Assembly: GCF_002854065.1 (NCBI RefSeq)
Contig: NZ_CP024147.1
Reading direction: 5' to 3' (one strand)
Length of the DNA stretch: 64,000 nt
From: Escherichia coli
GTDB lineage: Bacteria > Pseudomonadota > Gammaproteobacteria > Enterobacterales > Enterobacteriaceae
Made by a program: the position numbers
Part shown: piece by piece, positions 42,001 to 45,000 of the stretch
Layout of the letters: every line of letters starts with the position of its first letter
Position numbering within the stretch: position 1 is the stretch's first letter

Positions 42001-45000
42001 TCTCTTTCTGTATTCATGTTAGTGGGTTTGTGATAATGTCATAGTAGAAAAATCGTGAGAAAAAACATTTATTAATTATCATCTTATTGATTTTTATGTG
42101 TTGGTGTTTGTGATGATTGATTTTCACGAGAATCTCTTACTTTGATTAAGATTTTTATTTTTTCTTATATTTAACGTTATTCAATGCGCGTCCTGCTACG
42201 TTTTATCGTGATTTAGAATTGTATGTAGCATTAGCCATAAAATGATATCACTGGGAATATAATAAGGGGAATTATAATTTTGGGGGATAATTAGGCACTA
42301 TCAAAAATCGCTCATTCCAGACTTAAATACACGTTTTCTCCTGTTTAGGTTGTGGGCAAAAAATTCGATGAGGAGATGAGGTATAATTTCATTCACAACC
42401 TTATCACTATCTATTAATAAGCAAAAAACAACGTTCTTTTGTGATACGACTAACTGAAAATTCAACCCTTCGGGGCACGCTGCAGCGAGTTTGTGGGCAC
42501 TAACATTCGTACAAGCTTCATCTGCCGGGCGAAACGTCAGCTAAATACCTTAAAATAATCGCTTTTTTCTCCGGATTTGATCTCCTCATTTTTACATTCC
42601 AACATCATTTTATAAACATTCCGCTTGTATTTTTCTTTAGCGTAATGATAATCGCTATCACTGCGATTTACTTTTCTTTGCATAGATTGACTCAGAAAAA
42701 CGTTTAAGGGTGGGTGGCATGTTTGTTCCGTTTCTCATTATGTTGCGCGAAGGACTTGAAGCCGCGCTGATTGTCAGTTTGATTGCCAGCTATCTTAAGC
42801 GTACCCAGCGAGGCCGATGGATTGGTGTGATGTGGATTGGCGTGTTGCTTGCCGCTGCGTTGTGCCTGGGCTTGGGTATCTTCATTAACGAAACCACCGG
42901 CGAATTTCCGCAAAAAGAGCAGGAACTGTTTGAAGGTATCGTGGCGGTGATCGCCGTGGTGATCCTTACCTGGATGGTTTTCTGGATGCGCAAAGTGTCG
43001 CGCAACGTCAAAGTGCAACTGGAACAGGCAGTCGATAGCGCATTGCAGCGTGGAAATCATCATGGCTGGGCGCTGGTGATGATGGTCTTTTTTGCCGTTG
43101 CAAGGGAAGGCCTGGAGTCGGTCTTTTTCCTGCTGGCGGCATTTCAACAAGATGTCGGGATCTGGCCGCCTCTGGGTGCAATGCTCGGTCTTGCTACTGC
43201 CGTGGTGCTCGGCTTCCTGCTCTACTGGGGCGGTATTCGCCTCAATCTTGGTGCATTTTTTAAATGGACCAGCCTGTTTATTCTCTTCGTCGCCGCAGGA
43301 CTGGCTGCAGGTGCCATTCGCGCATTTCATGAAGCCGGATTGTGGAACCACTTTCAGGAAATCGCCTTTGATATGAGCGAGGTGCTCTCAACTCACTCGC
43401 TGTTTGGCACGTTGATGGAAGGGATTTTTGGTTATCAGGAAGCACCGAGCGTCAGCGAAGTCGCCGTCTGGTTTATTTATCTCATCCCGGCGCTGGTGGC
43501 ATTTGCTCTGCCACCACGCGCAGGGGCGACAGCGTCTCGCTCCGCGTAGCAAATACGACGCAAACTCTTGCTTAGTTACAACATACTTTAAAGGGATAGT
43601 CTCGTCATGACCATTAACTTCCGCCGTAACGCATTGCAGTTGAGCGTGGCTGCGCTGTTCTCTTCTGCTTTTATGGCTAACGCCGCTGATGTGCCGCAGG
43701 TCAAAGTGACCGTGACGGATAAGCAGTGCGAACCGATGACCATTACGGTTAACGCCGGGAAAACACAGTTCATTATTCAGAACCACAGCCAGAAGGCGCT
43801 GGAGTGGGAGATCCTCAAAGGCGTGATGGTGGTGGAAGAGCGGGAAAATATCGCCCCTGGTTTTAGCCAGAAAATGACGGCGAATTTACAGCCTGGCGAA
43901 TACGATATGACCTGCGGTCTGCTGACTAACCCGAAAGGGAAGTTGATTGTCAAAGGTGAGGCAACGGCGGATGCGGCGCAAAGTGATGCGCTGTTAAGTC
44001 TTGGTGGTGCAATTACTGCATATAAAGCGTATGTCATGGCGGAAACCACACAGCTGGTGACCGACACCAAAGCCTTTACCGACGCGATTAAAGCTGGCGA
44101 TATCGAAAAAGCGAAAGCACTGTATGCGCCGACGCGCCAGCACTATGAGCGCATTGAACCGATTGCTGAACTGTTCTCCGATCTGGATGGCAGCATTGAC
44201 GCCCGTGAAGATGATTACGAGCAAAAAGCCGCTGATCCAAAATTCACCGGTTTCCACCGTCTGGAAAAAGCATTGTTTGGCGACAACACCACCAAAGGGA
44301 TGGATAAGTATGCCGACCAGCTTTATACCGATGTGGTCGATTTGCAAAAACGCATCAGTGAACTGGCTTTCCCACCTTCAAAAGTGGTCGGCGGTGCAGC
44401 CGGACTGATTGAGGAAGTGGCAGCCAGCAAAATTAGCGGTGAAGAAGATCGCTACAGCCACACCGATCTGTGGGATTTCCAGGCTAACGTTGAAGGCTCG
44501 CAGAAAATTGTCGATCTGCTGCGTCCACAACTGCAAAAAGCCAACCCGGAACTGCTGGCAAAAGTCGATGCCAACTTTAAAAAGGTCGATACCATTCTGG
44601 CGAAATACCGTACTAAAGACGGTTTTGAAACCTACGACAAATTGACCGAGGCCGACCGGAACGCGCTGAAAGGGCCGATTACTGCGCTGGCGGAAGATCT
44701 GGCGCAACTTCGCGGTGTGCTGGGGCTGGATTAAGCGTTATGCAGTATGAAGATGAAAACGGCGTGAATGAACCGTCACGCCGACGTTTACTGAAAGGGA
44801 TTGGTGCGCTGGCGCTGGCGGGAAGTTGTCCGGTCGCTCATGCACAAAAAACGCAAAGTGCACCGGGCACGCTTTCACCGGATGCACGCAATGAGAAACA
44901 GCCGTTTTATGGTGAGCATCAGGCAGGGATCCTGACGCCACAACAGGCCGCAATGATGCTGGTGGCGTTTGATGTGCTTGCCAGCGATAAAACCGATCTT

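What the first reader, a model, noticed from the sequence alone, without database searches (positions are those of the whole stretch)
42719..43549. efeU is an intact 276-codon ORF (cryptic by frameshift in K-12)
The EfeU frame runs without interruption from the ATG at 42719 to the stop at 43549 and retains both REGLE iron-binding motifs. Together with the Fur box and the intact efeO and efeB, the EfeUOB ferrous-iron uptake system is predicted to be functional in this strain.
Basis: partly seen in the sequence, partly recalled or inferred. Interest (0 to 1): 0.3.

Follow-up and report, generated by a model that had tools for sequence, protein, structure and literature searches.

The report
Ordinary intact efeU iron-permease gene
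This E. coli strain carries the normal, uninterrupted efeU iron-permease gene with its partners efeO and efeB, which is the usual state in E. coli; the broken copy in laboratory strain K-12 is the exception, and this has been known since 2007.

Summary
Window 42719-43549 (+) is an ATG-to-TAG frame of 276 codons plus stop. REGLE motifs sit at residues 10-14 and 129-133. It is a full-length EfeU/Ftr1-family permease (NCBIfam EfeU equivalog 331.8 bits, cutoff 255).

Aligned to K-12, the only length difference is one G. K-12 lacks one of the two Gs at window 42824-42825 (codon 36) and then reads ...RWIV*. This is the published K-12 lesion.

efeO (43607-44734) and efeB (44740-46011) are full length. 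A Fur box (15 of 19 to consensus, the best in the 64 kb) lies 60-78 nt upstream of the ATG.

The protein differs from the experimentally functional O157:H7 EfeU by one residue, A221E. That position is a variable loop column in orthologues.

Intactness is not unusual. The undeleted junction is found in 4958 of 5426 complete E. coli genomes. The K-12 deletion is found in 367, and those sampled are mostly K-12 or laboratory derivatives. The identical gene is already annotated in strain XJ34 (WP_000497953.1).

Verdict: real, correctly interpreted, already known, and of low interest. Function is inferred, not tested.

The parts
42641..42659 (+). Fur-box-like site, CGTAATGATAATCGCTATC, 60-78 nt upstream of the efeU ATG
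   Evidence: 15 of 19 matches to GATAATGATAATCATTATC, the single best score on either strand of the 64-kb window. Identical in K-12 and O157:H7.
42667..42681 (-). Candidate CpxR box (GCAAAGAAAAGTAAA, one mismatch to GTAAA-N5-GTAAA)
   Evidence: Pattern scan only. Binding was not tested. CpxAR control of efeU is reported in the literature.
42719..43549 (+). efeU: 276 codons plus a TAG stop, inner-membrane Ftr1/OFeT-type iron permease
   Evidence: Uninterrupted translation. Pfam FTR1 1.9e-89 over aa 1-275. NCBIfam EfeU equivalog 331.8 bits against a cutoff of 255. 100% DNA identity to the annotated efeU of strain XJ34, WP_000497953.1.
42746..42760 (+). First REGLE motif (aa 10-14), in hydrophobic segment 1
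   Evidence: Invariant in 24 aligned orthologues.
42824..42825 (+). GG dinucleotide in codon 36. K-12 has only one G here, which is the frameshift that makes K-12 efeU cryptic
   Evidence: Alignment A1. K-12 frame 1 reads ...RWIV*. [quoted passage not shown]
43103..43117 (+). Second REGLE motif (aa 129-133), in hydrophobic segment 4
   Evidence: Invariant in 24 aligned orthologues.
43379..43381 (+). Codon 221, GAG (Glu). This is the only amino-acid difference from O157:H7 and repaired K-12 EfeU, which have Ala (GCG)
   Evidence: The 53-nt haplotype around it is found exactly in 22 of 5426 genomes. The column varies in orthologues: A/S/N/Q/G/D/H/E.
43607..44734 (+). efeO: 375 aa, periplasmic cupredoxin plus imelysin (M75) protein
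   Evidence: NCBIfam PRK10378 772 bits over 1-375 of 375. Pfam Cupredoxin_1 and Peptidase_M75. 2 aa differences from O157:H7.
44740..46011 (+). efeB: 423 aa, DyP-type haem peroxidase/deferrochelatase with a twin-arginine signal
   Evidence: TIGR01412 616.6 bits against a cutoff of 428. SRRRLL at aa 13-18 and GFKDG at aa 232. 5 aa differences from O157:H7.

Best explanation
This is the ordinary wild-type efeUOB operon of E. coli. Shown here: efeU encodes a full-length, seven-segment inner-membrane permease of the Ftr1/OFeT family with its two REGLE motifs, in hydrophobic segments 1 and 4. It is followed on the same strand by efeO (periplasmic cupredoxin plus M75 protein) and efeB (DyP haem peroxidase with a twin-arginine signal motif). 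A Fur box precedes the operon. Inferred from the published O157:H7 and Nissle 1917 work: the operon is repressed by Fe2+-Fur and by CpxAR at high pH. Under aerobic, acidic, iron-poor conditions the three proteins then take up ferrous iron, and possibly iron released from haem by EfeB, across the inner membrane through EfeU. The strain simply lacks the one-base deletion in codon 36 that inactivates the gene in the K-12 lineage.
For: The ORF is uninterrupted. All three proteins give full-length, above-cutoff equivalog matches and the expected Pfam domains. The K-12 difference is a single missing G in codon 36, as published. EfeU is 275/276 identical to O157:H7 EfeU, EfeO 373/375 and EfeB 418/423. 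Of the 17 nucleotide differences from O157:H7 efeU, only 1 changes an amino acid and 1 is TAG versus TAA, a pattern expected under purifying selection. The one substitution, A221E, falls in a variable column, between hydrophobic segments 6 and 7. There are seven hydrophobic peaks, with REGLE in peaks 1 and 4. The Fur box is the best in the window, and the upstream 160 nt differ from O157:H7 at one base. The gaps between genes are 57 nt and 5 nt. Literature: the system is cryptic in K-12, functional in O157:H7, Fur- and Cpx-regulated, and active at low pH.
Against: There is no experimental evidence for this strain. The simple sigma-70 scan found no promoter scoring 9 of 12 or better between 42500 and 42719, so the promoter is not located here. 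The E221 allele itself has never been assayed as far as I could find. The papers read here disagree on substrate (Fe2+, Fe3+ after oxidation, or haem iron) and on the export route of EfeO.
Confidence: 0.9

Rival explanations
1. The ORF is intact but the system does not work in this strain. The cause would be A221E in EfeU, the substitutions in EfeO (Q234K, D348E) or EfeB (5 changes), or a change in expression.
For: These exact alleles are untested. E221 is a minority allele: the exact haplotype is in 22 of 5426 genomes. About 2.5 kb between putP and efeU (the end of putP to ~42585; it holds a 442-aa ORF plus 1.18 kb of AT-rich DNA) has no counterpart in K-12, and similarity to K-12 resumes only 134 nt upstream of the ATG.
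Against: Position 221 is variable in orthologues, and acidic D occurs there. Differences from O157:H7 efeU are almost all synonymous. All motifs are intact. O157:H7 carries a similar ORF (447 aa) in the same position and its upstream DNA is 98.4% identical to the window's, and its system is reported as functional.
Confidence: 0.05
2. The operon's main physiological role is to extract iron from haem in the periplasm (EfeB as deferrochelatase) and import it through EfeU, rather than to take up free Fe2+.
For: PMC3577903 reports that O157:H7 EfeUOB, with its complete efeU, allows use of haem iron without the Dpp haem permease, and that EfeB releases iron from haem while leaving the tetrapyrrole ring intact. 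EfeB here is a full-length DyP protein with a Tat motif.
Against: The same paper calls the deferrochelatase activity controversial (shown for the paralogue YfeX) and says no preferred iron source has been determined. Other papers describe Fe2+ uptake at low pH. The two roles do not exclude each other. Nothing in the sequence discriminates between them.
Confidence: 0.25

Closest known systems
EfeUOB (YcdNOB) of E. coli O157:H7 (Cao et al. 2007, Mol Microbiol 65:857, cited)
   Same: Same locus (putP, a hypothetical ORF, efeU, efeO, efeB, phoH, pgaD). Same gene lengths. EfeU 275/276, EfeO 373/375 and EfeB 418/423 identical. Same Fur box, and one base different in the 160 nt upstream.
   Different: A221E in EfeU, 2 substitutions in EfeO and 5 in EfeB. 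TAG instead of TAA as the efeU stop.
efeU pseudogene of E. coli K-12 (annotated 'frameshifted')
   Same: 98% DNA identity. With the missing G restored, the K-12 protein differs from the window's only at residue 221.
   Different: K-12 lacks one G of the GG at window 42824-42825 (codon 36) and terminates after 36 codons. It also lacks the DNA between putP and efeU that holds the 442-aa ORF.
Yeast Ftr1p iron permease of the Fet3p/Ftr1p system (OFeT family)
   Same: Pfam FTR1 full-length match. Seven hydrophobic segments with REXXE motifs in segments 1 and 4. Homology is stated.
   Different: About 25% similarity, as reported. The partner is not a multicopper oxidase but EfeO (cupredoxin plus M75) and a DyP peroxidase. 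No sequence-related solved structure exists to compare with.

Membership tests
EfeU / Ftr1 (OFeT) iron permease | Full-length match to the family profile above the curated cutoff | tested here: met
   NCBIfam NF041756 EfeU equivalog 331.8 bits (cutoff 255). TIGR00145 351.8 bits (cutoff 303.8). Pfam FTR1 300 bits over aa 1-275.
EfeU / Ftr1 (OFeT) iron permease | Two REXXE (REGLE) motifs | tested here: met
   REGLE at aa 10-14 and 129-133. Invariant in 24 orthologues.
EfeU / Ftr1 (OFeT) iron permease | Seven transmembrane segments, with the motifs in segments 1 and 4 | tested here: met
   Kyte-Doolittle 19-residue scan gives seven peaks: 5-23, 38-56, 70-88, 119-138, 152-170, 185-203 and 248-266. 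This is a crude method and topology was not determined.
EfeU / Ftr1 (OFeT) iron permease | Iron transport activity | not testable with these tools
   Needs uptake or growth assays.
EfeUOB tripartite operon | efeU-efeO-efeB in this order on one strand, closely spaced | tested here: met
   42719-43549, 43607-44734 and 44740-46011, all on the + strand, with gaps of 57 and 5 nt.
EfeUOB tripartite operon | [quoted passage not shown] | tested here: met
   Pfam Cupredoxin_1 at aa 13-115 and Peptidase_M75 at aa 135-368. NCBIfam EfeO 481 bits.
EfeUOB tripartite operon | EfeB is a DyP-type peroxidase with a twin-arginine signal | tested here: met
   Dyp_perox_N and Dyp_perox_C. TIGR01412 616.6 bits. SRRRLL at aa 13-18 and GFKDG at aa 232.
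EfeUOB tripartite operon | Fur-dependent iron regulation (Fur box in the promoter region) | tested here: met
   A sequence match only: 15 of 19 to consensus at 42641-42659, the best in the window. Fur binding was not tested.
EfeUOB tripartite operon | CpxAR-dependent pH regulation | tested here: inconclusive
   One CpxR-like box with one mismatch at 42667-42681 (-). A short motif like this could arise by chance.
K-12-type cryptic efeU allele | One-base deletion in codon 36 | tested here: not met
   The window has GG where K-12 has G, so the window does not carry the cryptic allele.

The most novel reading that the evidence does not exclude
The rare A221E substitution turns the segment between hydrophobic stretches 6 and 7 from DMSA into DMSE. 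From memory, not tested here, this resembles the D-A-S-E motif in extracellular loop 6 of yeast Ftr1p, which has been implicated in iron hand-off from Fet3p. On this reading E221 would be an adaptive change that alters iron delivery from EfeO to EfeU. The evidence does not exclude it, but the column is freely variable in orthologues, so a neutral polymorphism is far more likely.
Probability: 0.03. Interest if true: 0.25.

Novelty: already known. Interest (0 to 1): 0.05.

Why it matters
It matters little beyond correct annotation. It confirms that this strain, like most E. coli, should have a working low-pH ferrous-iron uptake route in addition to its other iron systems, and that K-12 is a poor reference for this locus. 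The population count made here (K-12 deletion in 367 of 5426 complete genomes, undeleted allele in 4958) puts a number on that point.

Tried and rejected
- **Solved structures:** a sequence search with EfeU found no relative even at E up to 1, so I attempted no structural comparison.
- **Rfam:** the whole-window scan found no RNA family in or near the efe region.
- **Promoter:** the consensus scan found no site scoring 9 of 12 or better between 42500 and 42719. I therefore name no promoter. By eye there are TTTACA and TATAAA hexamers near 42591-42616, but their spacer is only 14 nt.
- **Antisense ORF:** the 215-aa ORF at 42704-43351 (-) and the other overlapping ORFs are mechanical products of a GC-rich coding region. 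They have no support as genes.
- **Alternative start:** a GTG at 42710 would add 3 residues. I rejected it in favour of the ATG that RefSeq uses in identical DNA.
- **Cao et al. 2007:** the primary paper is not held in the library. Its content is cited only through papers that quote it.
- **Population count limits:** about 92 genomes that hold efeU matched neither junction probe. They probably carry nearby SNPs that block the 28-base seed. The counts do not detect inactivating mutations elsewhere in the gene.

Full report
**1. Observation**

The stretch 42719-43549 on the + strand reads ATG...TAG with 276 sense codons and no internal stop. The mechanical ORF list shows the same frame opening three codons earlier at a GTG (42710). 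RefSeq uses the ATG in identical DNA. REGLE occurs at residues 10-14 (42746-42760) and 129-133 (43103-43117).

**2. Identity of the gene and its partners**

- The protein matches Pfam FTR1 over its whole length (1.9e-89). It also matches the NCBIfam EfeU equivalog model at 331.8 bits against a cutoff of 255.
- A 19-residue hydropathy scan gives seven hydrophobic peaks. The two REGLE motifs fall in peaks 1 and 4, the arrangement described for Ftr1p-type permeases (family description).
- The next gene, 43607-44734, is EfeO. It is 375 aa, with a cupredoxin domain and an M75/imelysin domain, and scores 772 bits over the full model.
- The third gene, 44740-46011, is EfeB. It is 423 aa, a DyP-type peroxidase scoring 616.6 bits on TIGR01412.
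- EfeB carries SRRRLL at residues 13-18 and GFKDG at residue 232.
- The gaps between the genes are 57 and 5 nt.

**3. Comparison with K-12**

A three-way DNA alignment of the window, K-12 and O157:H7 shows a single indel. K-12 lacks one G of the GG at window 42824-42825. That is codon 36, and K-12 then reads ...RWIV*. [quoted passage not shown] With the G restored, K-12 EfeU differs from the window's protein only at residue 221.

**4. Comparison with the functional reference**

Papers read here credit Cao et al. 2007 with showing that O157:H7 EfeUOB is functional, acid-induced, CpxAR-regulated and needed for Fe2+ uptake at low pH.

| Protein | Identity to O157:H7 |
|---|---|
| EfeU | 275/276 (A221E) |
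| EfeO | 373/375 |
| EfeB | 418/423 |

- Of the 17 nucleotide differences in efeU, one changes an amino acid and one swaps TAG for TAA. The rest are synonymous, as expected under purifying selection.
- In an alignment of 24 Enterobacterales orthologues, column 221 is variable (A, S, N, Q, G, D, H, E). Both REGLE motifs are invariant.
- Residue 221 lies between hydrophobic segments 6 and 7.
- I therefore see no reason to expect A221E to inactivate the protein. This is inference.

**5. Regulation**

- The 19-mer CGTAATGATAATCGCTATC at 42641-42659 matches the Fur consensus at 15 of 19 positions. It is the single best match on either strand of the 64-kb window.
- It is identical in K-12 and O157:H7. 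The 160 nt upstream of the ATG differ from O157:H7 at one base.
- A CpxR-like box with one mismatch lies at 42667-42681 on the minus strand. It is only a candidate.
- The simple sigma-70 scan did not locate a promoter.

**6. How unusual is an intact efeU?**

It is not unusual. The efeU region is present in 5417 of 5426 complete E. coli genomes. I designed two probes so that megablast's 28-base seed can only be satisfied across the deletion site.

| Probe | Genomes matched (of 5426) |
|---|---|
| K-12 junction, 53-mer | 367 |
| Undeleted junction, 54-mer | 4958 |

All 367 K-12-junction matches are at 100% identity. In the 60 records sampled, most are K-12 derivatives, laboratory strains or K-12-sized isolates. 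The intact state is the rule and K-12 the exception. The window's efeU DNA is 100% identical to that of strain XJ34, a bovine isolate from China, where it is already annotated as efeU, WP_000497953.1. The E221 haplotype is a minority allele, found exactly in 22 genomes from varied hosts.

**7. Mechanism**

Shown here:
- intact genes, motifs and domain content;
- operon layout;
- the Fur-box sequence.

Inferred from the literature on near-identical alleles:
- repression by Fe2+-Fur, and by CpxAR at high pH;
- expression under acidic, iron-poor, aerobic conditions;
- iron passage through EfeU, helped by periplasmic EfeO and EfeB.

The literature is unsettled on three points: whether the transported species is Fe2+ or Fe3+ after oxidation by EfeO, whether haem iron released by EfeB is a main substrate, and how EfeO is exported. 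The sequence cannot decide these.

**8. Surroundings**

- The window is collinear with XJ34 at 99.4% identity over 1-49160 and 99.0% over 49927-56472.
- Between putP and efeU lies a 442-aa ORF (40209-41537, minus strand), followed by about 1.18 kb of AT-rich non-coding DNA with GC down to 0.30.
- This DNA, including the ORF, has no counterpart in K-12. A similar ORF sits in the same position in XJ34 (442 aa) and O157:H7 (447 aa). Similarity to K-12 resumes near 42585, 134 nt upstream of the efeU ATG, so the Fur box lies in the shared part.
- Rfam finds nothing in the efe region.

**9. Verdict**

The feature is an ordinary, already-described wild-type operon. Interest is low.

Noticed in passing
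window 49160-49927: A 768-bp IS1 (IS1B-like) is inserted about 50-60 nt inside the 5' end of pgaC, with a 9-bp target duplication (GCATAGGGG). The remaining pgaC ORF (47885-49123, minus strand) is 412 aa against 441 aa in XJ34. pgaCD is separated from pgaAB and its promoter, so PGA (biofilm polysaccharide) synthesis may be impaired.
   Followed up: partly
window 56473-57240: A second, identical IS1 lies in inverted orientation upstream of dgcT, with no target-site duplication. Beyond it (57264-64000) the window follows a K-12-like gene order (FabD-like gene, an unnamed ORF, tRNA, ghrA, PHP-domain gene). XJ34 has EAL-domain, FidL, winged-helix and fimbrial genes there instead. This suggests an IS1-associated deletion or replacement. 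The two IS1 copies bracket pgaB-pgaA-dgcT.
   Followed up: partly
window 40209-41537 (-): A 442-aa ORF between putP and efeU is absent from K-12. Similar ORFs in the same position are annotated 'hypothetical protein' in XJ34 (442 aa) and O157:H7 (447 aa). It has no Pfam or NCBIfam family, only a weak sub-threshold PipB2_N hit (E 0.0097). It contains three internal repeats of the form W...AR(N/S)YL, beginning at aa 250, 312 and 374 (62 aa apart). About 1.18 kb of AT-rich non-coding DNA follows it.
   Followed up: partly
window 43379-43381: EfeU residue 221 is Glu where most E. coli have Ala. The exact surrounding 53-nt haplotype occurs in only 22 of 5426 complete genomes, from cattle, chicken, human, baboon, mink and wastewater.
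   Followed up: yes
protein P0053: A 243-aa 'high-affinity Fe2+/Pb2+ permease [Escherichia coli]' cluster with 818 member sequences is 100% identical to the window's EfeU over 85% of its length. It is presumably the downstream fragment of the frameshifted K-12-type gene annotated as if it were a protein, that is, an annotation artefact in public databases.
   Followed up: no
efeU matches on plasmid records: Seven of the efeU matches in the complete-genome collection lie on records labelled as plasmids rather than chromosomes. I did not examine them.
   Followed up: no
window 47222-47415 (-), 10785-11207 (+), 61448-61532 (-): Three Rfam matches above gathering score. Ysr251 (189 bits) is antisense to the 3' end of phoH. 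A cspA-type thermoregulator leader (160 bits) lies in the cold-shock gene cluster. There is also one tRNA.
   Followed up: no
XJ34 counterparts of window ~2,300-4,500 (etk); XJ34 fimbrial island has no counterpart in the window: In the closest genome, XJ34, etk is annotated as frameshifted and a fimbrial gene has an internal stop. I did not check whether the window shares the etk frameshift.
   Followed up: no
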